DNA of 32,000 nt from an uncultured Chloroflexia bacterium (GCA_963704755.1 OY969938.1:2910001-2942000); one strand, 5' to 3'; shown: positions 1,249-30,713, numbered from the stretch's first letter. Translations and numbers: made by a program. The notes: a model not told the origin generated them from the letters alone.

Positions 1249-1540
1249 ATGGGGATATTATACTTGGGGAAGAGGGGGTGGTGGGGAATGGGGAAAGGAA
1301 GAAATTGTGATATATGTGATAATTGAGGAATAACATGGTTTTTGTGCCTATTCAATTAATATTGGCTTGACGGTTAGAAAAATATATTTTATTTTGTGGG
1401 CAATTTATTCACTCGATTTAATCACCTGGAGAAAGTATGTTTCTTTGCGGTTTATATTATTTAGGCTTGTTATCGTTACAATAATAAAAGCTGATTTGAA
1501 ATATACAGAAGAAAAATATAATTGGGTAATAGGGGAATAA

Positions 1541-2386
1541 ATGGATTCGCAAATTACGCATAAATTGATCATTCTTTTTGATAGAAATCAAATAGACATA
1601 AGTCAACTAGATGATTTTGCCAGGAAAACTTTTAAAAATGAAGTGACTACACATGTTGGCCTTACAGGGGACAATAACGTTGAGATCACCATTGAAGGAT
1701 CTCTAGAGGCTGTTGATGAAAGCCACAATAGAATTTCGAAAGATTTTATTGAAAGGAAACATTTAAGTTCGTTTCGACTGAAAGATACGGCCGGAGATGA
1801 AATTCGTTTTAAGGCATATCCTATCCTCTCCACAATTGAACAAGAATTAAGATCTTTTATTAATCATTGTTTGATTGACGCACTAGGGTTTACTTGGTGG
1901 GCTTCATTGGGGGAAATCACTTTACCCGGAGTCATAACGCCTCTTCCACAAAGAAGCTATCACCCATTGGAGTTTATGTCCATTGAGCAACTTATCGACT
2001 TTGTAACTTTTGAAAAAGCTGAATGGGACGAAGAAAGTCCATTTCTCTTAAAAGATTTAATTACGGTATTAGAAAAATCTAAATCTTTCGATAATTTCCG
2101 AATACACATTCAACAAAAAGTTCATAAAATATCGTTATGGCAAGATGTGTTTTCGAAATATCTTAATGTCGATAAAGATTCTTGGCAGCAATTTAGAAGC
2201 AAGGACCTAAAATTTATTGTGGATTTGAGAAATCGGGTAATGCATTATCGGCCAGTGCACTTGAATGAATTATCAGCTTTGGAAGAAAAGCAAACGAAAA
2301 TTTTTGGGCTTATTGCATCGGCCAGGTCTTCCTTATCTGATGAAGAGAAGAACGAAATAGCAAGATTTAACAAAACAAATTCGTGA
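1541..2386 (+). CDS. Swt1-like HEPN domain protein (predicted RNase effector) with an uncharacterised N-terminal domain of about 90 aa
   Basis: 281-aa ORF in the AT-rich island. Helix-1-type motif STIEQELRSFINHCLIDALGFTWW. C-terminal Rx4H motif DLRNRVMHYRP (R230-H235, nt 2228-2245). AGGGGA lies upstream of the ATG. Confidence 0.65.
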   Translation: MDSQITHKLIILFDRNQIDISQLDDFARKTFKNEVTTHVGLTGDNNVEITIEGSLEAVDESHNRISKDFIERKHLSSFRLKDTAGDEIRFKAYPILSTIEQELRSFINHCLIDALGFTWWASLGEITLPGVITPLPQRSYHPLEFMSIEQLIDFVTFEKAEWDEESPFLLKDLITVLEKSKSFDNFRIHIQQKVHKISLWQDVFSKYLNVDKDSWQQFRSKDLKFIVDLRNRVMHYRPVHLNELSALEEKQTKIFGLIASARSSLSDEEKNEIARFNKTNS

Positions 2387-2399
2387 TGTTTATGCAGAA

Positions 2400-4142
2400 A
2401 TGATCTATGAATATTCTGAAAAAGATCCGTATTCGGAGTTTTATCGAAATCTGCGAAAAACCCACAATCCCTCGGTGATAATTAAGTTGCTTTCCGAGAT
2501 AGACGTATTTCAAATAAGTGGGACGATTTCCGAAAAAGAAAGTTTAGAGTTAAGGGCAATCGCATTTAATCAACTTCGAGAAATTGCTGATAATCAATTA
2601 GAGCAAACCCAAAATATTATCCTTAACGAACTGTTGCCTTTAAGTTTGCAAGACGATGAGGATTTGCGTAGTCAATACCGTAGTTTTAGAGAGATTCTTT
2701 CAAAATGGATCGAAGAGCATTCACAAGAAGATATGGAATTTCTTCGAAACGAAATAATAAAAATGCTCATTCCGTTGATTGGTGGGGATAAACATAAGCC
2801 CGTTTGTTGGCTAATTTCAACAATTGGATATGGAAATCCAAATCTATATAAAGAACTTTGGAATCATGCAATTGCCTGGAATAATGAAAATGGTGATTTG
2901 TCACTTTCAACATTGTCTTGGATTGGTTTATCCATTGAACAAAAGAAAATTGTTTCGGAAGAACTTCACAAGCGTTCCGAGGAACGCTTTAATAATCATC
3001 TTGCATTTGCAATTGCGCGTCTTAAAGATACGGAGAGCATAAAAAAAATTATCTCAAATTGGTTAGAACGAAAAGGTCGCAAGACCTTAAATGTTGATGT
3101 ATCGCTTGCCTTTACAGCAATTCGAGAAATAATAGATTCCTTTGATAGCGATTTTATACTTCAGGATTATGTTTGGCATAATATGGTTGAATTGATCAAT
3201 TCCGAACCTAAAGAATTGTTTTGGAATTTTAACATTGGACACATTTTTGAATCATGCAATAGTTTCGAAGTAATACCCACTATATTTAATTGGATTGCTG
3301 AGAAAAAAGACTGGTTTGAGAACCCCAATTGGACGCTTTATCTTATGGAATTAAGAGCACAAAGCTGTATAAAACCAAGGCAGTTAGAAGGTTGGCATCA
3401 AATTAATAATGATCATTTCTTTGAACTTCTTAAATCGCAAGTAACAATAAACACTGATAACGATAGTTTCGCTTCATCTCAAGAAGAAATTGCAAAAGAA
3501 AATGCGTGGAAAACTTTACTGTATGCTGGATATGAACCTGCTTTACAATTGTTTGACCAAGTTGTTTCGAATGAAAGGGGGCGTTTCATTCGTGGAAGAA
3601 TAATGAAATATTTAGAATGTTTTCGCTATGAGTCATTACCCCAAAAAGTTGTTGATTGGGTCACAGAAACTTATGATGAACCAAAAACACAAGACGGAAG
3701 AGAATTATCTTTTCGTATAGAAGCAATTCACATGGCGAAGAGTGCTTCAACAATAGAAGCTTTTGACGTGCTTCTAAATTTTGGTTTAACAGTTGAAGGA
3801 CAGGTACTTGACGAGACAGTAAAAGCAATATCAACGGTGGCAATAACTTTACTCAGTCAAGGGAATACCGAGGTTATTAATAAGCTTTTTACCTTTACAA
3901 CTGAAAGTCAAGTCGTTCGTCAACGAATGGCCTGTACTTATGTTTTGGCCAGAATTGCTTCTTTCTCCGATTATAAAGAGCTATTCTTGCGATATATAAA
4001 CAGTTTTTTATCAATGTTAGATGATGAAAATCGTTCTCCAATTGAACATGAGCAAATTATACGAATATTAGATCGGTGTGCTGACTGGAACATTCCAGAT
4101 AATCTGATTTCCAAATTAAAGCTTGTGGGCTCACGAACCTAA
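2400..4142 (+). CDS. Large all-alpha repeat protein (HEAT/ARM-like), function unknown
   Basis: 580-aa ORF starting 13 nt after ORF1 ends. The composition is helix-rich. C-terminal segments resemble PBS-lyase-type HEAT repeats (SFRIEAIHMAKSASTIEAFDVLL, VVRQRMACTYVLARIAS). I saw no Walker A or other catalytic motif. Confidence 0.6.
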   Translation: MIYEYSEKDPYSEFYRNLRKTHNPSVIIKLLSEIDVFQISGTISEKESLELRAIAFNQLREIADNQLEQTQNIILNELLPLSLQDDEDLRSQYRSFREILSKWIEEHSQEDMEFLRNEIIKMLIPLIGGDKHKPVCWLISTIGYGNPNLYKELWNHAIAWNNENGDLSLSTLSWIGLSIEQKKIVSEELHKRSEERFNNHLAFAIARLKDTESIKKIISNWLERKGRKTLNVDVSLAFTAIREIIDSFDSDFILQDYVWHNMVELINSEPKELFWNFNIGHIFESCNSFEVIPTIFNWIAEKKDWFENPNWTLYLMELRAQSCIKPRQLEGWHQINNDHFFELLKSQVTINTDNDSFASSQEEIAKENAWKTLLYAGYEPALQLFDQVVSNERGRFIRGRIMKYLECFRYESLPQKVVDWVTETYDEPKTQDGRELSFRIEAIHMAKSASTIEAFDVLLNFGLTVEGQVLDETVKAISTVAITLLSQGNTEVINKLFTFTTESQVVRQRMACTYVLARIASFSDYKELFLRYINSFLSMLDDENRSPIEHEQIIRILDRCADWNIPDNLISKLKLVGSRT

Positions 4143-5475
4143 CGATCGAGTAGGCGGGGCTAGTTTGGAGTTTTTAGCCAATCATGGTTACTTAGAAAAA
4201 GATGTAAGTATGATGTCTGAAATCATGGGATTAGAAAGGAAAGGCGCTTATTGGGAAGTAACCAGGAAAGTAGAGTTAGATTGGTTTTCATATACAATCG
4301 GGATTCTTTACGATCGGGATTCGGATGCCTTCACCTCTGTAATATGTTCTATTATTTCAGGTAATGAATGGCAATCTGTGTTTCAAATAATTCATTCTCT
4401 TGTTTTTGCTCACAGAGAAAAAGGGAAAAAAGAGTTACCTCGATCTATTGCTGAAGCAATAATTGCAAGAATGGAAAATTTTTCTGCTTTCTATTCAGAA
4501 ACAGAATTATTCGATTTCCTTGGAGAGTTAGCACCAGTTATTCTAATTGACTCGATAAGTAAAATAGATGTTTCTAAATGGATGCCAGATGCACGTGTTG
4601 CTTTAGCAAATACTCTGGGAAGAATCAATTTGCATTCAGTACCAGAAACCGAAATTATGACCTTATTAAAATCTTTAACTGAAGATGAATTGTATCCGGT
4701 CAGACGTGCTGCATATAGGGGAATTTCTAGACAATTGCCAGTACGTCTGCATGCTCTTATTCAATCGTGGTCAGAATCGCCAATATTAGCTCTTGTACAA
4801 AGAGCAGCAGAGGCTATAGGATGGGCTGAGACGAACGAAGACGAGGATAGCCAAAAAATACTGACTGATTTAATCGAGAAATTTATAAGCCACCCTGAAC
4901 GAAAAATTCGTGAAGAGATCGAACGTGCTCAGAGTGAACATCGAAAGAGAATTTGGGCAAAAGAATATTTACAAAAGATTCTTGACGTACAAGAAGGGAC
5001 TAACCAAGAAATACTGCAAAATTGGTGTTTTGGAGAAGCATTAAGTCAAATAGGAGATGATGAATGTCTGGATATTTTATATAAACATATTATGAAAGTG
5101 TCATTACCCAATGTCGCCTATTGGCTTGGACGAATATACAGAAACCTTAATGACAACTGGAGAAAAATCACTCTTAAGTGGCCTGACCCATGGTTAGATA
5201 TGAGAGGTACTCTTGAAAAGGGAGAGGGTAAATTTATTTACAATCATGAAAAAAGTGTTGCTGTACAATATTCGATTTGGTATTCTCCCGCTACAACCCC
5301 AGATGAAAAGCATTCTTGGGGGGGAGTAATGACAGTACAAGATATGGAATTGCTAATTAGTTTTAAATCAGGCCAACTTGAGGTAAGTGATGGAAGGAGA
5401 GGAGAGGTCGTTATTACTAGAATCCAAGGCAATATTTCTGTGTTTTTAGGAAATGGACTTTTTCCAGCTCCGTAA
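4123..5475 (+). CDS. HEAT (PBS-lyase-like) repeat protein with a C-terminal non-repeat, beta-rich domain
   Basis: 450-aa ORF from a TTG at 4123 that overlaps the ORF2 stop (alternative ATG at 4210). HEAT-like units are spaced about 31-35 aa apart: DARVALANTLGRI, YPVRRAAYRGISRQ, LALVQRAAEAIGWA, CFGEALSQIGDDECL. The start is uncertain, and it may be one gene with ORF2 (see findings). Confidence 0.6.
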   Translation: MWAHEPNDRVGGASLEFLANHGYLEKDVSMMSEIMGLERKGAYWEVTRKVELDWFSYTIGILYDRDSDAFTSVICSIISGNEWQSVFQIIHSLVFAHREKGKKELPRSIAEAIIARMENFSAFYSETELFDFLGELAPVILIDSISKIDVSKWMPDARVALANTLGRINLHSVPETEIMTLLKSLTEDELYPVRRAAYRGISRQLPVRLHALIQSWSESPILALVQRAAEAIGWAETNEDEDSQKILTDLIEKFISHPERKIREEIERAQSEHRKRIWAKEYLQKILDVQEGTNQEILQNWCFGEALSQIGDDECLDILYKHIMKVSLPNVAYWLGRIYRNLNDNWRKITLKWPDPWLDMRGTLEKGEGKFIYNHEKSVAVQYSIWYSPATTPDEKHSWGGVMTVQDMELLISFKSGQLEVSDGRRGEVVITRIQGNISVFLGNGLFPAP

Positions 5476-5513
5476 TTAAACGCATTCACATACTGAGACT
5501 TTACTGAATTAAA

Positions 5514-6226
5514 AAAGATGGTGGGTTACGGGCAAGGTTAGGGATGTCCTGCCGTCCGGCGATCCGCCGGTGTTATCAATGGGCCTTGCACCCACCCTAC
5601 GGCATTGCAATGTCGACGTAGGGTGGGTGCAGGGGCGGTGCACCTGGATTCGCCGTTTTGCTATTACCGCCCCGTAACCCACCGAAGGGATGTAACCTGG
5701 TTATTCACAGGCGTAAACGTAAAGATGGTGGGTTACGGGCAAGGTTGGGGATATCAGGCTGGCCGGTGATCCACCTGTGTTATCGATGAGCCCTGCACCC
5801 ACCCTACGGTATGCAATGTCTATGTAGGGTGGGTGCAGGGGCGGTGCACCTGGATTCTCCGTTTTGCAATTACCCCGCCCCGTAACCCACCGCTGGGCTG
5901 CAAACCGCTTGCTAAAATAGGCACATATAAAGATGGTGGGTTACGGGCAAGGTTGGGGAAATCAAGCCGGCCGGTGATTCGCCGGTGTTATCAATGGGCC
6001 CTGCACCTACCCTACGGCATTGCAATGTCGACGTAGGGTGGGTGCAGGGGCGGTATACCTGGATTCTCCGTTTTGCAATTATCCCGCCCCGTAACCCACC
6101 GGTAGGTCGAAAATCGGTTATTCAAAAACGTAAACGCGAAGATGGTGGGTGCAGGGCAAGGTTAGGAAAATCAAACCGGCCGGTGATCCGCCGGTGGTAT
6201 CGATGAGCCCTGCACCCACCCTACGG
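5514..6226. repeat. REP family A array: 3.5 units with a period of about 207-210 bp
   Basis: Units start at about 5514, 5721, 5929 and 6139 with AAAGATGGTGGGTTACGGGCAAGGTT. Each full unit has outer arms GGTGGGTTACGGG / CCCGTAACCCACC. Its inner inverted pair is CCCTGCACCCACCCTACG ... CGTAGGGTGGGTGCAGGG. Confidence 0.9.
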
Positions 6227-6252
6227 TTGTTGCAATCCGGCGGGATTAACCC

Positions 6253-6825
6253 TTAGGGAACCTCGAACCCTGCCGTATTGCCCGATGCCGGTCTGGCTAT
6301 TTCTGCCTCGTAATCTCCCCCCCACGCCTTATCGTAATACCCCATCGCCACGTAGCGGTGAAAGCTCGACCAGGGCCAATCGACCACCGCTTTAACCAGG
6401 CCGTGTTTGACCGGGTTGTAATGGATGTATTCGATATGCCGTTTCAGGTCCTGCCAATCGTAAATGGTATGTTCCCAATACCGGCGCTGCCAAACTCCAA
6501 CTTCACCCTTTTGGGCTTTGGAAAGGCTGATTTCTCCAGCCAGACCACCGTTTCGTAAATAGGCCTTGCTGAACGAGGTTTTAATCTTTTTCCATCGCCC
6601 AGGGTAATCGTGGTCCCCTTCGGGCAGGGTCCAAATACAATGCAGGTGTTCGGGCAATAAACTTATCGCATTGATTTCGAAAGGATGTTCCTTTTGAGTA
6701 TCGACTATGGCTTCTTTTAATAATTGCCGTGCCAGCGGTTCAACAAAGATCGTACGGCGCTGGTTCGTAATCAGGGTAAAAAAGAAGGTTCCTCCTGGAA
6801 TAAAGGCTCGACGATATTCTGGCAT
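6253..6825 (-). CDS. REP-associated tyrosine transposase (RAYT; IS200/IS605-like Y1 HUH transposase family)
   Basis: 190 aa. HUH motif LPEHLHCIW (HLH at nt 6640-6648). WQRRYWEH and the C-terminal Tyr motif EYIHYNPVKHGLV are typical of RAYT/TnpA(REP). Confidence 0.88.
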   Translation of the reverse strand: MPEYRRAFIPGGTFFFTLITNQRRTIFVEPLARQLLKEAIVDTQKEHPFEINAISLLPEHLHCIWTLPEGDHDYPGRWKKIKTSFSKAYLRNGGLAGEISLSKAQKGEVGVWQRRYWEHTIYDWQDLKRHIEYIHYNPVKHGLVKAVVDWPWSSFHRYVAMGYYDKAWGGDYEAEIARPASGNTAGFEVP

Positions 6826-6859
6826 TTAATAATTGTATAGTCATATGCCAAAGACAGGG

Positions 6860-7189
6860 CTGTAACCCGGTTATTCACATGCATAAACGTAAAGATGGTG
6901 GGTTACGGGCAAAGCCTGGATTGTCAAGCCGGCCGGTGATCCACCGGCGCTATTGAGGAGCCCTGCACCCACTCTACGGCCTTGCAATGCCGATGTAGGG
7001 TGGGTGCAGGGGCGATACCTTATGTGACGCTGGTGAGCAATCACCCCGCCCCGTAACCCACCGGTTGGCTGAAACCCACTTGCTAAAATGGGCACATATA
7101 AAGATGGTGGGTTACGGGCGGGGTTGGGGATGCCAAGCCAACCGGTAATCCGCCGGCATTATCGACGAGCCCTGCACCCACCCTACAGG
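6860..7189. repeat. REP family A array: 1.5 units on the other side of the RAYT gene
   Basis: It has the same AAAGATGGTGGGTTACGGGC ... CCCTGCACCCAC(C/T)CTACGG ... TGTAGGGTGGGTGCAGGGGC ... CCCCGTAACCCACC architecture as 5514-6226, including the same two alternating spacer types. Confidence 0.9.
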
Positions 7190-14980: not shown

Positions 14981-16291
14981 ATGCTTTACAAACCGAAAAG
15001 AAGTAACCGGCGGCGCTGGCTCCCGTACCTGGTAGCCGCAGCCGTTTTTTTAGGGCTAGCCTTTGCTGTTGCCCAGATCCCTTCCATAAAATCGCGCCTG
15101 ACCTGGCACATTGAGATCGTTCAAGCTTACGTTCGGGGGGTCATCGACCCCATTGGGGCCATGCCAACCGCAGACCCGCTCACCCCGGACGCAAGCCTTG
15201 CGGAAATCTTCACACCCACCCCTACGGTGACGCCTTCTCCAACCCAGCCCGCTGCCAACCCAAGCGGGACCATTCCCCCCACACCCAGCCCGACCTCAAC
15301 CCAGGCTCCAACAGCGACCTCAACCCCGCAGCCGTTGCCGGAGAAAGTGATCCTCACCCCGCCAACGCACATCGTTCAGGATATCAACAACTGCGGGCCG
15401 GCGACCCTGGCCATGTTGCTTTCCTACTATGGCTGGGATGGCGACCAGTACACCATCGCCGACGTGGTCAAACCCATACCGTCGGACCGCAACGTCAACG
15501 TGGATGAGCTGCTTTCTTTCACCCAGAACAACGTCAATTTCCTGGAAACCCAATTCCGGGTAGGCGGGACGGTGGATATGCTCAAGCAGTTCCTGGCTGC
15601 CGGCATGCCGATGATGATCGAGGAAGGCTTCATCATGGACGAGTCCTACTGGCCGAACGACGACCGCTGGGCCGGCCATTACCTGCTGCTAACCGGCTAT
15701 AACGACATCACCCAGACCTTTATCACCCAGGATTCTTTCCTGGGCGCCAACCGGGTAGTATCGTATAAAGACCTGGATAACTCCTGGCAGATCTTCAACC
15801 GGGTCTATTTCATGGCCTTCCCGCCGGAAAAAGAGCAAGATGTGAAAGACATCCTCGGCGATAATTGGGACGAGAAGCAGAACCGCCAGAACGCCCTGGA
15901 CGCCGCCCAGGCCCAAACCGAGGCGGATCCGAATAATGCCTATGGCTGGTTCGACCTGGGCACCAACATGCTCTATTTCGATATGTACGGTCAGGCGGTC
16001 GGCGCCTACGATAAAGCCCGTGCCCTGGGACTGCCGCAGCGCATGCTGCGCTACCAGTTTGGCCCGTTCATCGCCTATTTCCAGACCAATCGCATCGACG
16101 ACCTGATGGAACTGGTCAATTACGCCCTGAAGATCACGCCCAATTCGGAGGAGGCCCTCTTGTGGAAAGGCTGGGCGCTCTACCGCCAGGGCAAGACCGA
16201 CGACGCACTCAAAAGCTTTGACGAGGCCCTGAAAGACCACCCCGGCTACTCGGATGCGCTCTACGCCATCAAATTTGTCAACGGCGGGTAA
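14981..16291 (+). CDS. Membrane-anchored C39-like cysteine peptidase domain protein with C-terminal TPR repeats
   Basis: It has an N-terminal TM helix, a Pro/Thr/Ser-rich linker, NNCGPATLAMLLSYYGW (the Cys motif of the Peptidase_C39_2-like family), and a C-terminal TPR-like region (EEALLWKGWALYRQGKTDDALKSFDEALKDHP). Confidence 0.8.
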   Translation: MLYKPKRSNRRRWLPYLVAAAVFLGLAFAVAQIPSIKSRLTWHIEIVQAYVRGVIDPIGAMPTADPLTPDASLAEIFTPTPTVTPSPTQPAANPSGTIPPTPSPTSTQAPTATSTPQPLPEKVILTPPTHIVQDINNCGPATLAMLLSYYGWDGDQYTIADVVKPIPSDRNVNVDELLSFTQNNVNFLETQFRVGGTVDMLKQFLAAGMPMMIEEGFIMDESYWPNDDRWAGHYLLLTGYNDITQTFITQDSFLGANRVVSYKDLDNSWQIFNRVYFMAFPPEKEQDVKDILGDNWDEKQNRQNALDAAQAQTEADPNNAYGWFDLGTNMLYFDMYGQAVGAYDKARALGLPQRMLRYQFGPFIAYFQTNRIDDLMELVNYALKITPNSEEALLWKGWALYRQGKTDDALKSFDEALKDHPGYSDALYAIKFVNGG

Positions 16292-17709: not shown

Positions 17710-18639
17710 ATGAACCATCAACACACCTCTGCACTTAATGGCAAATCCCTGCTGGATGCGTTGGCCCGCAATACCGGCCTGGCGGATCTGCGCAATGCCA
17801 ACCTGGATGGCTGCGGCTTGACCGCCTTTCCGCGCGAGGTGTTGGCCCTGTCGGACCTTGAGGTGCTCAGCTTTTACGACAACCAACTGGCCGAGCTGCC
17901 GGCCGACCTGGCCCAGTTGAACCAGTTGCGCACCCTCAACCTTGGGCAGAACCTGCTGGAGGCCATCCCGGGGAGCATCGGTCGCCTGGAACAGCTCGAA
18001 ATGCTCGACCTGGGCCATAACCGTCTTTTGGAACTGCCGGCTGCTTTGGGCGACCTGAAAAACCTGGTTTTTTTGTATGCCAGCAACAACCGGCTCAGCG
18101 CGCTGCCCGACTCCCTGGCCGGGTTGGGCCGGCTGCGCTACCTCAACGTCACCGATAACCGCTTCAGCCAACTGCCGGGCTGGATCGGCTGCCTGGAGGG
18201 GCTGATCGAACTGCGCGTGTACAATAATGCCCTGGAAAGCCTGCCAACCGAGATCGGCAGCCTGCCGCGGCTGGTCGAGCTGCACGCCAATAAGAACCAG
18301 CTCGCCGCGCTGCCGGAGTCGATCGGGAACCTGCACACGCTGGCCAGGCTGACCTTGCAGTCCAACCGCCTGACCGCCCTGCCGGAAACGATCGGCGATC
18401 TGGTCCACCTGATCGAACTGGACCTGCGCTTCAACAACCTCTCTTCGCTCCCCGCGAGTTTCGCCAGCCTGCACGCGCTCGAATACCTCGACCTGCGCGC
18501 CAATGCCCTGACGGATCTGCCGGAGGGCCTGGGGCAGCTCGAGCGTTTGCGTAAGATCGATTTACGCTGGAACCGCCTGGAAAGCTGCCCATCCTGCCTG
18601 GCGGAACTGGCCAGGCGGGACTGCATTGTTTATACCTGA
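17710..18639 (+). CDS. Leucine-rich repeat (LRR) protein
   Basis: 309 aa with eleven consecutive 23-aa repeats fitting LxxLxxLxLxxNxLxxLPxxIgx. I saw no signal peptide and no attached enzymatic domain. Confidence 0.9.
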   Translation: MNHQHTSALNGKSLLDALARNTGLADLRNANLDGCGLTAFPREVLALSDLEVLSFYDNQLAELPADLAQLNQLRTLNLGQNLLEAIPGSIGRLEQLEMLDLGHNRLLELPAALGDLKNLVFLYASNNRLSALPDSLAGLGRLRYLNVTDNRFSQLPGWIGCLEGLIELRVYNNALESLPTEIGSLPRLVELHANKNQLAALPESIGNLHTLARLTLQSNRLTALPETIGDLVHLIELDLRFNNLSSLPASFASLHALEYLDLRANALTDLPEGLGQLERLRKIDLRWNRLESCPSCLAELARRDCIVYT

Positions 18640-21200: not shown

Positions 21201-22637
<1,437 letters not shown>

Positions 22638-22675
22638 TCACCACCCCGCTCTGGCTAACCGAACGGGCACAAGTT

Positions 22676-23641
22676 TTAGCGTTTGCCGCCGGGTACGGGC
22701 AGGTCCAGCGATTTTGGGGTATGGGCAGGTAAGGCATCCAGATCGTAGGGTGTCTCCTGATATACGTAATAATTCATCCAGTTCGAGTACAGCAGGTGGG
22801 CATGCCCGCGCCAGCGCACCAGGGGCGGCTGGGTGGGGTCATCCTGCGGGAAATAGTTACGCGGCACGTCGATTGGCAGGCCCAGCTTGACGTCGCGCTC
22901 GTATTCCAGCTTGAGCGTCTGGGGGTCGTATTCGGAGTGGCCGGTGACGAAGACCTGGCGCCCATCCCGGCTGGCGACGATGTACACGCCCGCCTCATCC
23001 AATTCGGCCAACACATCAAGTTCAGGTACCTGCTCGATGTCTTCGCGGCGAATCTCGGTATGGCGCGAATGGGGCGCGTAGAACACGTCATCGAATCCGC
23101 GCAGCAGGGGGACGTTCTGTTTTAGAACGTTGTGGGGGAAGATGCCGAACTGTTTGGACGGCAGGGGATATTTGGGGATGCCAAATTGGTGATAGAGCCC
23201 GGCCTGTGCGCCCCAGCAGATGTAGAACAGGGCGAACACGTTGGCCAGGCCCCAATCCATGATGCACTTCAATTCATCCCAATAATCGACTTCTTCGAAA
23301 TCGAGGTGTTCCACCGGGGCCCCGGTGATAATCAGGCCGTCGAACTTGCGGTCCTGGATTTGATCGAATGTTTTGTAGAACGTGCGCAGATGTTCTTCCG
23401 AGATGGTTTTGTTGTGGTGCGAAGCGGCCCGGACCAGGGTGGCTTCCACCTGCAAGGGGGTATTTCCCAGCAGGCGCAGCAGTTGGGTTTCGGTCGCGAT
23501 TTTCGTCGGCATCAGGTTGAGAATGGCGATCTGCAGCGGACGGATGTCCTGGTGGATGGCCCGGTCTTCGTCCATGACGAAGATATTCTCATTGGCCAGG
23601 GTTTCTCTGGCCGGAAGCCGGTTGGGGATTTTGATAGGCAT
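22676..23641 (-). CDS. metA: Homoserine O-acyltransferase, MetA family (acetyl versus succinyl specificity not determinable from the sequence; the metY neighbour suggests acetyl)
   Basis: [47 protein letters not shown]... is the canonical MetA N-terminus. GGAG RBS. The tracked ORF to 23737 is an upstream extension. Confidence 0.9.
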
Positions 23642-23690
23642 ACTTTTCTCCTTGGATCTACCGTATAAATAAGGCGGTAACAGTGTATAC

Positions 23691-23745
23691 CCCGAGTTTT
23701 GGGTGTTTGCGCGGGCAAATCCCGCGCAAACACCCAAAACTCGGG
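23691..23745. repeat. Dispersed hairpin family copy inside the metA 5' leader
   Basis: CCCGAGTTTTGGGTGTTTGCGCGGG-caaat-CCCGCGCAAACACCCAAAACTCGGG. Confidence 0.9.
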
Positions 23746-23771
23746 AACTCTTTGTATAAGCCTCAAGAAAA

Positions 23772-23806
23772 ACTAAAAAACCTCTTCTTGAGATAAGAAG
23801 AGGTTG
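23772..23806 (-). terminator. Riboswitch expression-platform terminator
   Basis: The minus strand reads AACCUCUUCUUAUCUCAAGAAGAGGUU followed by UUUUUAGUUUUU. The 5' half of the stem can compete with P1 of the aptamer. Confidence 0.7.
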
Positions 23807-23821
23807 ATTAAGTGAATCCGT

Positions 23822-23932
23822 CTCCTCTCATCTTCCAGAAAACTTTTTCTGCAGGAATTGACACCATGCTCTTCGTGAGCGGGTTGTCGAGGTTTCACAG
23901 GGCCTGTCCCTCCACCTCTCTGGATAAGAGTA
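23822..23932 (-). promoter_or_regulatory. SAM-I (S-box) riboswitch aptamer upstream of metA-metY
   Basis: The minus strand reads CUCUUAUCCAGAGAGGUGGAGGGACAGGCCCUGUGAAACCUCGACAACC...GGUGUCAAUUCCUGCAG...GAAGAUGAGAGG. This matches the conserved SAM-I core (UUAUCNAGAG-GGNGGAGGGA-GGCCC-UGAA-CC-CAACC-GGUG-AAUUCC-GC-AGAUGAGAG). Confidence 0.9.
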
Positions 23933-30593: not shown

Positions 30594-30713
30594 CCCGCGT
30601 CCGGGCGGGACCGGCGCGGCAGAATCCGCCGAACCCTGTCAGGTCCGAGAGGAAGCAGCAGTAAGGTGGCCACTCTGGGCGCCGCCGGAAAACCTGCCCG
30701 GCGCATTTTTTTA
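30594..30713 (+). ncRNA. ffs: Signal recognition particle RNA (small bacterial 4.5S type)
   Basis: Conserved domain IV CCUGUCAGGUCCGAGAGGAAGCAGCAGUAAGG with a GNRA (GAGA) tetraloop. The 5' GCGUCCGGGC pairs with the 3' GCCCGGCGC. It ends in a U-run. Confidence 0.85.

What the first reader, a model, noticed from the sequence alone, without database searches (positions are those of the whole stretch)
1250..5513. AT-rich three-ORF island (HEPN protein plus two giant HEAT-like repeat proteins): candidate undescribed conflict or defence system
Seen in the sequence:
- G+C drops abruptly from about 60% to about 25-30% (hand-counted lines) exactly between the HXXEE gene start at 1248 and the REP array at 5514.
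- The island holds only three co-directional, tightly packed ORFs (13-nt gap, then a 20-nt overlap).
- ORF1 carries a HEPN Rx4H signature.
- ORF2 (580 aa) and ORF3 (450 aa) are alpha-solenoid proteins with PBS-lyase-type HEAT units.
- I found no Walker A motif, helicase, methylase, integrase or antitoxin-like small ORF.

Established knowledge: HEPN RNases are recurrent suicide or abortive-infection effectors (Cas13, Csm6/Csx1, RnlA/LsoA, AbiD/F-type Abi proteins, HEPN-MNT toxin-antitoxin pairs). Large repeat scaffolds such as TPR, WD40 and LRR serve as invader-sensing modules in Avs/NLR-type systems.

Inference: a HEPN effector gated by ATPase-less HEAT-repeat sensors would be an architecture I cannot assign to any named system.
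Basis: partly seen in the sequence, partly recalled or inferred. Interest (0 to 1): 0.86.

Follow-up and report, generated by a model that had tools for sequence, protein, structure and literature searches.

The report
One frameshifted HEPN–HEAT defence-like gene
The three ORFs are pieces of one horizontally acquired gene of about 1,310 aa, a HEPN-like RNase module fused to a giant HEAT-repeat sensor. It belongs to an uncharacterised family that sits next to phage-defence genes, and this copy is interrupted by two single-base frame changes.

Summary
The AT-rich island is real: the gene is about 36% G+C against about 58% in the flanks. The ORFs, the 13-nt gap, the 20-nt overlap and the Rx4H motif are all as described.

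The "three-ORF cassette" is one gene. In relatives a single 1,300-1,340-aa ORF covers ORF1, ORF2 and ORF3 colinearly. The window copy carries two +1 frame changes, each a one-base T insertion, near 2366-2368 and 4122-4125.

The protein has four parts:
- a ferredoxin-like domain;
- a Swt1/Abi2-type HEPN-like domain, with Rx4H invariant in 19 homologs;
- a HEAT solenoid of about 920 aa (AlphaFold2 pLDDT 88);
- a small C-terminal β domain.

The solenoid family is large (630 representatives) and modular. Most members stand alone directly after a NACHT-like NTPase gene. Others are fused to NACHT, to HD-CE, or to this HEPN module. Eight of 15 loci lie beside BREX, type I/III R-M, OLD/Gabija-like or other defence genes. 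No PADLOC model matches.

It is most likely an uncharacterised effector-sensor anti-phage protein built like Dsr1/DSR2 or Avs. In this window it is broken, or mis-assembled. That makes it a new variant of a known kind, of moderate interest.

The parts
1249..1540 (+). AT-rich upstream leader of the island, with a Shine-Dalgarno-like AGGGGA at 1531-1536, 4 nt before the ATG.
   Evidence: Sequence read. There is one promoter-like site at 1367-1395, but the number of such sites is no higher than in shuffles. No direct repeats flank the island.
1541..2365 (+). Segment 1 (the ORF1 frame): the N-terminal module, made of a ferredoxin-like beta-alpha-beta-beta-alpha-beta domain (residues 7-82, nt 1559-1786) followed by a helical Swt1/Abi2-type HEPN-like domain.
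   Evidence: AF2 model with pLDDT 74. HEPN_Swt1 is the top Pfam family in 5 of 9 members, best E 1.5e-5, always below the cut-off. The segment is 51% identical to residues 7-277 of the intact 1313-aa P0008.
2228..2245 (+). Codons for R230-N-R-V-M-H235, the Rx4H dyad, followed by YRP.
   Evidence: R230, M234, H235, R237 and P238 are invariant in 19 homologs down to 26% identity. The motif is present in all HEPN-fused forms.
2366..2368 (+). Frame break J1: TTT where relatives imply TT, a 1-nt insertion. The reading frame moves +1. The conserved LTKQIRDVYAEM continues in the next frame upstream of the ORF2 ATG.
   Evidence: Three-frame translation. tblastn shows query 1-278 in frame 2 and query 276-861 in frame 3. 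L001, L004, L006 and L008 read straight through this point.
2367..4122 (+). [quoted passage not shown]
   Evidence: 47% identical to residues 54-626 of the single 1080-aa L001 protein. The AF2 model of homolog P0012 is helical from 1 to 923.
4122..4125 (+). Frame break J2: CTTG, 4 nt where 3 are expected. The frame moves +1 again. The next frame has a TAA at 4117-4119, and the conserved WAHEPN starts at 4126.
   Evidence: Homologs read ...L-x-x-W-A-H-x-P-D... in one frame.
4126..5475 (+). Segment 3 (ORF3): the C-terminal part of the solenoid plus the small C-terminal beta domain (about nt 5209-5457), then the stop codon.
   Evidence: 45% identical to residues 629-1077 of the L001 protein. HEAT_2 scores E 5.8e-4 here and above Pfam's cut-off in homologs. 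The six-stranded beta domain is at 936-1015 of P0012.
5480..6250 (.). REP-like array of four units of about 208 nt. It marks the right boundary of the island and is not part of the gene.
   Evidence: A further copy lies at 6857-7000, on the other side of the ORF at 6253-6825(-).

Best explanation
The island is one horizontally acquired gene that would encode a protein of about 1,310 aa. Its N-terminal module of about 280 aa is a ferredoxin-like domain plus a Swt1/Abi2-clade HEPN-like domain with an intact Rx4H dyad, and is the presumed RNase effector. This module is fused to a HEAT-type alpha-solenoid of about 920 aa and a small C-terminal beta domain, the presumed sensor.

Proposed mechanism (inferred, not shown): the solenoid binds a phage-derived molecule, probably a protein. 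This relieves autoinhibition or drives oligomerisation. Two HEPN domains then form the composite Rx4H active site and cut RNA, which stops the infected cell. This is how Dsr1/DSR2 and Avs proteins couple a repeat sensor to an effector.

In most family members the same solenoid works with a NACHT-like NTPase, either encoded just upstream or fused. The HEPN fusion is an NTPase-less variant.

In this window the gene is interrupted by two 1-nt insertions, each a +1 frame change. As written, it yields a free HEPN module and two solenoid fragments, and is most likely inactive. The alternative is that the two indels are assembly errors.
For: Single gene:
- tblastn of the reconstructed polyprotein gives three abutting segments in three frames in the window. 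It gives one continuous frame in L004, L006/7, L008, L011, L021, L022 and L023.
- ORF1 is 51% identical to the N-terminus of the intact P0008.
- ORF2 and ORF3 align end to end on one 1080-aa protein.

HEPN-like effector:
- The Rx4H dyad is invariant.
- Sub-threshold HEPN_Swt1 hits recur in divergent members.
- There are partial hits to PD-T4-5 and PDC-M34B. PD-T4-5 is described as an AbiF/D relative with an abortive-infection phenotype (PMC9519451).

Sensor:
- The solenoid model is confident (pLDDT 88.3, pTM 0.85).
- Foldseek matches HEAT superhelices at E down to 6e-8.

Modularity typical of immune proteins:
- The solenoid also occurs fused to NACHT (P0101, P0155) and to HD-CE (P0158, E 2.9e-28).
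- In 7 loci it directly follows a NACHT-like NTPase gene of about 625 aa.

Defence neighbourhoods:
- BrxL/PglX in L006 and L008.
- Type III REase in L009.
- HsdS/HsdM in L010 and L023.
- DUF4276/HEC-01B in L012.
- OLD/GajA-like in L014.
- PD-Lambda-4_A in L015.

Foreign origin: gene G+C is 0.36 against 0.58 in the flanks here, and 0.33 against 0.56 in L004.

Recent disruption:
- There are 0 in-frame stops in 1,311 codons, against 7-11% stop density off-frame.
- 92% of family-invariant residues are kept, within the 85-100% range of intact homologs.

Precedent: the Avs7 sensor is shared with the NTPase-less Dsr1 and with a HEPN-like protein (PMC13581612).
Against: - No HEPN family reaches Pfam's cut-off.
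- Foldseek of the ORF1 model finds no HEPN structure. Only the ferredoxin-like part is recognised, and weakly. The model is poor over residues 117-170.
- No experimental data exist for any member.
- In the window, L004 and L011 the flanks are housekeeping or transport genes, not defence genes.
- No trigger is known, and nothing here shows RNase activity, oligomerisation or a phage phenotype.
- The state of the window copy is uncertain. Two other apparently broken copies turned out to be sequencing artefacts.
Confidence: 0.6

Rival explanations
1. The gene is intact in the organism. The two frame changes are uncorrected indel errors in a long-read-type assembly, and the cell makes the full 1,310-aa protein.
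For: - Both breaks are single-T insertions in short T runs.
- The record is a single 4.87-Mb contig, so a long-read assembly is plausible. That last step is my inference.
- Two other broken relatives proved to be artefacts. L003 differs from intact L022 by one gap and has many Ns. L025 differs from L023 by 0 mismatches and 21 indels.
- The three segments show no decay.
Against: - About 20 other genes in the window give end-to-end domain matches with no frame breaks.
- The gene has 32 homopolymer runs of 5 nt or more, including A8 and G7, and all are in frame. The breaks lie in runs of 2-3 nt.
- A real frame change exists in this family: the same break occurs in two 99.9% identical but distinct assemblies, L001 and L002.
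Confidence: 0.3
2. One reading: a three-protein system in which a free HEPN toxin (ORF1) is gated by two separately translated HEAT proteins (ORF2 and ORF3). This would be a functional gene fission.
For: - All three ORFs are open, and ORF1 has a good Shine-Dalgarno sequence.
- ORF2 starts with ATG 13 nt after the ORF1 stop, so translational coupling is conceivable.
- Stand-alone N-module proteins exist elsewhere.
- Sensor and NTPase are separate polypeptides in the two-gene form of the family.
Against: - No other locus has this three-way split.
- Conserved residues continue across both junctions, outside the called ORFs (LTKQIRDVYAE before the ORF2 ATG).
- ORF3 has a TTG start with no Shine-Dalgarno sequence and begins in the middle of the solenoid.
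- The break points fall inside a continuous helical repeat array, not between domains.
Confidence: 0.07
3. The gene is not an immune gene. It is a selfish toxin or addiction-type element, or an RNA-processing or regulatory protein that happens to be mobile.
For: - In the window, L004 and L011 it is a lone gene among housekeeping or transport genes.
- Shorter N-module relatives sit near TA pairs, MNT-HepT and PIN-PhdYeFM.
- Some shorter relatives carry an N-terminal extension that JGI names 'DNA-binding phage protein'.
- HEPN domains also occur in non-defence RNA processing (PMC3710099).
Against: - Eight of 15 loci adjoin recognised defence genes.
- The solenoid is swapped between HEPN, HD-CE and NACHT partners, a hallmark of immune sensors.
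- No antitoxin-like partner is conserved.
- Distribution is patchy, with a compositional signature of horizontal transfer.
Confidence: 0.15
4. Programmed +1 ribosomal frameshifting at both junctions produces the full-length protein at low level.
For: Both shifts are +1 and occur at YUU codons (UUU-A and CUU-G).
Against: - Intact relatives need no recoding, and their sequences at these positions are in frame.
- There is no stop or rare codon in the A site and no upstream Shine-Dalgarno-like stimulator.
- The break positions are not conserved in any other locus.
Confidence: 0.03

Closest known systems
Dsr1/DSR2 (defence-associated sirtuins) and the Streptomyces HEPN-like protein that shares the Avs7 sensor (PMC13581612)
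   Same: A single large protein with an N-terminal enzymatic effector fused to a long helical-repeat sensor and no NTPase. The sensor module is shared with STAND NTPase-containing relatives. They are found in defence islands.
   Different: The effector here is HEPN-like, not SIR2. The solenoid has no detectable sequence relation to Dsr models in PADLOC or to any PDB chain. A structural relation to those sensors could not be tested beyond the top Foldseek hits. No trigger or phenotype is known.
Avs / bNACHT (bacterial NLR-like STAND NTPases)
   Same: A tripartite logic of effector, NTPase and repeat sensor. Family members P0101 and P0155 are NACHT-solenoid fusions. Seven loci encode a NACHT-like NTPase directly upstream of the solenoid gene. 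The NTPase profile's best PDB hit is Avs4 (E 6.7e-4, P-loop region only).
   Different: The window protein has no NTPase. In the common form the NTPase and the sensor are two polypeptides. No PADLOC Avs model hits above noise.
Abi2/AbiD/AbiF-Swt1 clade HEPN proteins, including PD-T4-5 (PMC9519451, PMC3710099)
   Same: The same HEPN clade is suggested by the Pfam HEPN_Swt1 hits and the partial PD-T4-5/PDC-M34B hits. It has an RNxxxH dyad and an E..LR first helix. HEPN genes recur next to R-M and BREX loci (PMC12839542).
   Different: Those are small stand-alone proteins. Only 30-50 residues match the PADLOC models. Here the HEPN domain is preceded by a ferredoxin-like domain with its own invariant H62/R79/D82/R89 and followed by a 1,000-aa sensor.
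LA2681-family HEPN fused to TPR repeats (Anantharaman et al. 2013, PMC3710099)
   Same: HEPN fused to a helical-repeat array.
   Different: The repeats are HEAT-type rather than TPR. Homology to that family was not tested here.

Membership tests
HEPN superfamily (Swt1/Abi2 clade) | Conserved Rx4-6H motif | tested here: met
   RNRVMH at residues 230-235. R230 and H235 are invariant in 19 homologs and present in all 7 HEPN-fused solenoid representatives.
HEPN superfamily (Swt1/Abi2 clade) | Significant profile match to a curated HEPN family | tested here: inconclusive
   PF18731 HEPN_Swt1 is the top hit in 5 of 9 members (best E 1.5e-5) and in distant members P0033 and P0034 (23.8 and 23.0 bits). 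All are below the 27.5-bit cut-off.
HEPN superfamily (Swt1/Abi2 clade) | Four-helix up-down bundle fold | tested here: inconclusive
   The AF2 model is helical after residue 83, with the motif on a confident helix (212-234), but residues 117-170 are poorly modelled. Foldseek found no HEPN structure at E<=1e-3.
HEPN superfamily (Swt1/Abi2 clade) | Metal-independent endoRNase activity | not testable with these tools
   Needs biochemistry.
HEAT-repeat alpha-solenoid | Tandem antiparallel helix pairs forming a superhelix | tested here: met
   The model of P0012 (40% identical to ORF2+ORF3) has pLDDT 88.3 and about 55 helices over residues 1-923. Foldseek hits CAND1, importin-beta and SF3B1 at E 6e-8 to 2e-5.
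HEAT-repeat alpha-solenoid | Pfam HEAT_2 above the gathering score | tested here: met
   Homologs score 30.4-36.0 bits against the 27.7 cut-off. Window ORF3 alone scores 20.5 bits.
Named defence systems in PADLOC-DB v2 (PD-T4-5, PDC-M34, Dsr, Avs and others) | Full-length match of the component proteins to a system model | tested here: not met
   Only residues 74-122 of ORF1 match PDC-M34B or PD-T4-5. ORF2, ORF3, P0012 and the NTPase partner have no meaningful hit.
Avs / NLR-like STAND | STAND NTPase domain in the protein | tested here: not met
   There is no P-loop family hit in ORF1-3 or in P0008/P0013. The domain is present only in sister architectures.
HEPN-MNT or other type II toxin-antitoxin pair | Conserved adjacent antitoxin gene | tested here: not met
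   No conserved small partner exists across L004, L006, L008, L011, L021-L023 or in the window.
Programmed ribosomal frameshift gene | Frameshift site conserved among homologs | tested here: not met
   Seven related loci are in one frame across both positions.

The most novel reading that the evidence does not exclude
The 1,000-aa solenoid plus beta domain defines a so far undescribed phage-sensing receptor module, with about 630 representatives, mostly in Chloroflexota and other environmental bacteria. It is plugged into at least four output configurations:
- fused to a HEPN-like RNase;
- fused to HD-CE;
- fused to a NACHT NTPase;
- most often, encoded as a separate polypeptide right after a NACHT NTPase gene whose product has its own N-terminal effector-like domain.

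The last arrangement would be a two-polypeptide 'split NLR', in which sensing and nucleotide-driven oligomerisation reside on different chains. The HEPN fusion would then show that the same sensor can fire an effector with no NTPase at all.
Probability: 0.4. Interest if true: 0.6.

Novelty: new variant of a known kind. Interest (0 to 1): 0.45.

Why it matters
If the family is an immune receptor, it adds a large sensor class that no current Pfam or PADLOC model names. It also gives a second, independent example of one sensor being shared between NTPase-driven (NLR-like) and NTPase-less effector fusions. That principle was only recently shown for Avs7/Dsr1.

The common two-gene form, a NACHT NTPase plus a separate sensor, would be a convenient system for asking how ligand sensing is transmitted to a STAND NTPase in trans.

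For genome annotation, the practical lesson is that tightly packed, overlapping ORFs in successive frames should be tested for being a single frameshifted gene before they are read as a multi-gene system.

Tried and rejected
1. Recurrent inactivation of a toxic gene. At first every HEPN-type locus looked frameshifted (window, L001/2, L003, later L025). This is rejected as a general pattern. The exhaustive searches found at least 7 intact loci. L003 and L025 are near-identical to intact alleles and differ only by indels and Ns, so they are sequencing artefacts.
2. Fold evidence for HEPN. Foldseek of the ORF1 model against PDB and BFVD gave nothing at E<=1e-3. A profile search against PDB sequences gave nothing.
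3. Nuclease in the type-B partner. From memory, its N-terminal domain (invariant GG..GYxYQ, E, D, D..QxK) resembles Cap4/DUF4297 PD-(D/E)xK nucleases. Pfam, PADLOC and two PDB profile searches gave no support. It remains only a lead.
4. Relation between the HEPN N-module and the NTPase partner. hhalign probability was 0.3%, so none.
5. Host identification. Exact look-ups returned no accession or name. The genome scan did not retrieve the window's own genome.
6. Viral, plasmid or phage carriage. There were no relatives in IMG/VR, PLSDB or INPHARED.
7. Island mobility signals. There is no tRNA, no flanking direct repeats and no integrase.
8. Promoter and terminator scans were no better than shuffles.
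9. Sequence relation of the solenoid to solved defence sensors: none.

Full report
**Observation.**
- The compositional island is real. G+C is 0.54-0.65 on both sides and 0.28-0.40 between about 1250 and 5500. The gene averages 0.359 against 0.577 for the rest of the sampled window.
- The three co-directional ORFs, the 13-nt gap and the 20-nt overlap are as described.
- The flanks are a YbjQ gene and an HXXEE gene upstream. Downstream lie a REP-like array of about 208-nt units, an ORF at 6253-6825(-), then MacA/MacB-type efflux genes.
- No tRNA, integrase or flanking direct repeat marks the island.

**The three ORFs are one gene.**
- ORF1 has only a handful of relatives in the word-indexed search.
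- In L001 and L002 its homolog is followed by a single protein of 1080-1091 aa. Residues 54-626 of that protein align with ORF2 (47% identity) and residues 629-1077 with ORF3 (45%).
- Three-frame translation shows that conserved sequence runs across both window junctions in the neighbouring frame. LTKQIRDVYAEM lies upstream of the ORF2 ATG. WAHEPN starts right after a frame-specific TAA.
- tblastn with the reconstructed 1,310-aa polyprotein gives three abutting segments in three successive frames in the window. It gives one uninterrupted frame in L004, L006/7, L008, L011, L021, L022 and L023.
- ORF1 is 51% identical to residues 7-277 of the intact 1313-aa P0008.
- The breaks are single-base insertions: TTT for TT at 2366-2368, and CTTG (4 nt for 3) at 4122-4125.

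**State of the window copy.**
- The three segments have no in-frame stop in 1,311 codons, while off-frame stop density is 7-11%.
- They keep 92% of the residues that are invariant in ten intact homologs, inside the 85-100% range those homologs show in leave-one-out tests. Any inactivation is therefore recent.
- About 20 other genes in the window give end-to-end domain matches.
- All 32 homopolymer runs of 5 nt or more in the gene are in frame. Both points argue against a generally error-ridden assembly.
- On the other hand, L003 and L025 first looked like independent broken copies and turned out to be artefacts. L003 is 99.4% identical to intact L022 with a single gap at the break and many Ns. 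L025 differs from intact L023 by 0 mismatches and 21 indels.
- The L001/L002 break is shared by two 99.9% identical but distinct assemblies and is probably real.
- I put about 0.3 on the window breaks being assembly errors. Either way the native unit is one ORF.

**Anatomy of the protein.**
- *N-module (ORF1).* The AF2 model has pLDDT 74. It shows a confident ferredoxin-like beta-alpha-beta-beta-alpha-beta domain (residues 7-82) followed by helices. The Rx4H dyad sits on a confident helix (212-234), and residues 117-170 are poorly modelled.
- *HEPN evidence.* HEPN_Swt1 is the top Pfam family for 5 of 9 close members (best E 1.5e-5) and for distant members P0033 and P0034, always below the 27.5-bit cut-off. 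PADLOC gives only partial hits of the first HEPN helix to PDC-M34B and PD-T4-5. PD-T4-5 is described as a distant AbiF/D relative acting by abortive infection (PMC9519451).
- *Conserved residues.* Across 19 homologs down to 26% identity the invariant residues are R230, M234, H235, R237, P238, E100 and R104. H62, R79, D82 and R89 in or next to the ferredoxin-like domain are also invariant.
- *Fold searches.* Foldseek found no HEPN structure. Only weak ferredoxin-like, ACT or PII-type matches appeared for the first 90 residues. The HEPN call therefore rests on the motif plus consistent sub-threshold profile hits.
- *Solenoid.* The model of P0012 (1023 aa, 40% identical to ORF2+ORF3) has pLDDT 88.3 and pTM 0.85. 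It is all-alpha from 1 to 923, with a six-stranded beta domain at 936-1015. Foldseek gives 208 hits at E<=1e-3, led by CAND1, importin-beta family proteins and SF3B1. These are generic large HEAT superhelices. HEAT_2 passes Pfam's cut-off in several homologs.
- *Relation to solved structures.* No PDB chain is sequence-related to the solenoid.

**Family and architectures.**
- The exhaustive HMM search found 630 representatives at E<=1e-3 and 407 at E<=1e-30. The family is not rare; the word-indexed searches had missed most of it.
- Among the best 150:
  - 95 are stand-alone proteins of about 1020 aa;
  - 7 carry the HEPN N-module, all with Rx4H[HY]RP;
  - 2 carry an N-terminal NACHT/AAA_16 NTPase (P0101, P0155);
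  - 1-2 carry an HD-CE domain (P0158, E 2.9e-28);
  - a few have unknown N- or C-terminal extensions.
- In seven loci (L005, L009, L010, L012-L015) the stand-alone solenoid gene directly follows, often overlapping, a gene of about 625-650 aa. That gene has a NACHT/STAND-like P-loop domain (NACHT E 1.8e-5; best PDB profile hit Avs4).
- The N-terminal 230 aa of that partner has an invariant GG..GYxYQ ... E ... D ... D..QxK pattern. It reminded me of Cap4/DUF4297 nucleases, but no tool confirmed this.
- The HEPN N-module is itself mobile. It occurs in 330-526-aa proteins of cyanobacteria, Acetothermia and others, with Q-rich repetitive tails.

**Genomic context.** Recognised defence genes adjoin the family in 8 of 15 loci:
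- BrxL, an ImmA/IrrE-type peptidase, DUF4411 and an integrase in L006/7.
- A PglX-type methylase and BrxL in L008.
- A type III restriction enzyme in L009.
- HsdS/HsdM in L010 and L023.
- DUF4276/HEC-01B in L012.
- An OLD/GajA-like ATPase-nuclease in L014.
- PD-Lambda-4_A in L015.

In the window, L004 and L011 the gene is a lone insertion among ordinary genes. In the window and L004 it is strongly AT-shifted relative to the flanks. No relatives were found in viral contigs, plasmids or phage genomes. Members come mainly from Chloroflexota (Anaerolineae, Ktedonobacteraceae), with Brocadiaceae and a distant Abditibacterium member.

**Mechanism.**
- *Shown:* one gene; the domain order; conservation of the Rx4H dyad; the HEAT solenoid; interchange of HEPN, HD-CE and NACHT partners on the same solenoid; frequent defence neighbours.
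- *Inferred from established knowledge:* HEPN RNases need dimerisation to form the composite active site (PMC3710099). Sensor-effector proteins such as Avs7 and Dsr1 use a shared repeat sensor to bind phage proteins and release an effector (PMC13581612). On that basis, the solenoid would sense a phage product and license HEPN-mediated RNA cleavage, with or without an NTPase.
- HEPN genes as auxiliary effectors beside BREX loci are documented (PMC12839542), which fits L006 and L008.

**Comparison and novelty.**
- The design is known: an effector plus a helical-repeat sensor, with the sensor shared with STAND relatives.
- This particular solenoid family, its ferredoxin-like plus HEPN N-module, and the common two-gene arrangement of NTPase plus separate sensor are not covered by any PADLOC (2023), Pfam or NCBIfam model I could query. 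I found no paper describing them.
- I cannot exclude that the NACHT-fused members are among the 684 sensor structural clusters catalogued in PMC13581612.
- I rate it a new variant of a known kind. The specific finding in this window is a broken (or mis-assembled) copy, not a three-component system.

**Verdict.**
- Confidence that the three ORFs are one gene is about 0.97.
- Confidence in a conflict or defence role is about 0.7.
- Confidence in the HEPN-RNase-plus-sensor mechanism is about 0.5.
- Interest is 0.45.

Noticed in passing
window 5480-7000: There are four tandem REP-like units of about 208 nt (5480-6250), and a fifth copy at 6857-7000 on the other side of a 190-aa ORF at 6253-6825(-). 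The ORF's sequence (LPEHLHCIW ... YIHYNPVKHGL) looks like a REP-associated Y1 transposase (RAYT) to me. Pfam gave no hit at E<=1e-5, so that name is unverified.
   Followed up: partly
L016:8990-10573: An Anaerolineae MAG has a 527-aa ORF with a CoA_binding_3/PglD_N N-terminus. Its last 190 aa or so match only the C-terminal end of the solenoid family (P0008 residues 1119-1309, 38% identity). This is either a chimera or a remnant of a decayed family member fused in frame.
   Followed up: partly
L022:4134-4949, L023:4134-4949, L003:2-511, L025:3-509: A 272-aa ORF is conserved immediately upstream of the HEPN-solenoid gene in one sub-lineage. It carries its own RNLFVH (Rx4H-like) motif and may be a second HEPN-type protein.
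   Followed up: partly
L009:3666-5543, L010:1941-3821, L012:801-2696, L013:7968-9914, L014:7984-9912, L015:6183-8204: These are the NACHT-like NTPase partners of the stand-alone solenoids. They have an uncharacterised N-terminal domain of about 230 aa with invariant G7 G8 G14 Y15 Y17 Q18 E62 D67 D79 Q85 K87 N131 R132 (L010 numbering). It could be a PD-(D/E)xK-type nuclease, but no library or PDB profile search supports this.
   Followed up: partly
P0017-P0034; L017:6001-6999; L018:6001-7410: The ferredoxin-like plus HEPN-like N-module also exists as 330-526-aa proteins in cyanobacteria, Acetothermia and others, with Q-rich repetitive C-terminal tails. Three of them (P0021, P0022, P0024) have an N-terminal extension of about 100 aa that JGI names 'DNA-binding phage protein'. 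Two examined loci sit near TA pairs (MNT-HepT and PIN-PhdYeFM).
   Followed up: partly
L003 vs L022; L025 vs L023: Public metagenome contigs L003 (many Ns, one gap) and L025 (0 mismatches, 21 indels against a sister-sample contig) carry sequencing-type indels that mimic frameshifted genes. Proteins P0003, and probably P0004, in the protein collection are truncated products of such errors.
   Followed up: yes
window 21201-23930 (-): A SAM riboswitch (RF00162, 98 bits) at 23825-23930 lies upstream of homoserine O-succinyltransferase (22676-23737) and a Cys/Met-metabolism PLP enzyme (21201-22490). This is an ordinary S-box methionine operon.
   Followed up: no
window 30603-30702 (+): A small bacterial SRP RNA gene (RF00169, 56 bits).
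   Followed up: no
window 14981-16291 (+) and 17710-18639 (+): A Peptidase_C39-like plus TPR protein and a 309-aa leucine-rich-repeat protein lie a few kb downstream of the island. Their function is unknown and no link to the island is evident.
   Followed up: no
whole window: Every housekeeping protein tested is a singleton cluster at 90% identity in a collection of 15 billion proteins, seen only on the one 4.87-Mb contig. The host therefore has no close sequenced relative in the collection, and its identity could not be established.
   Followed up: partly
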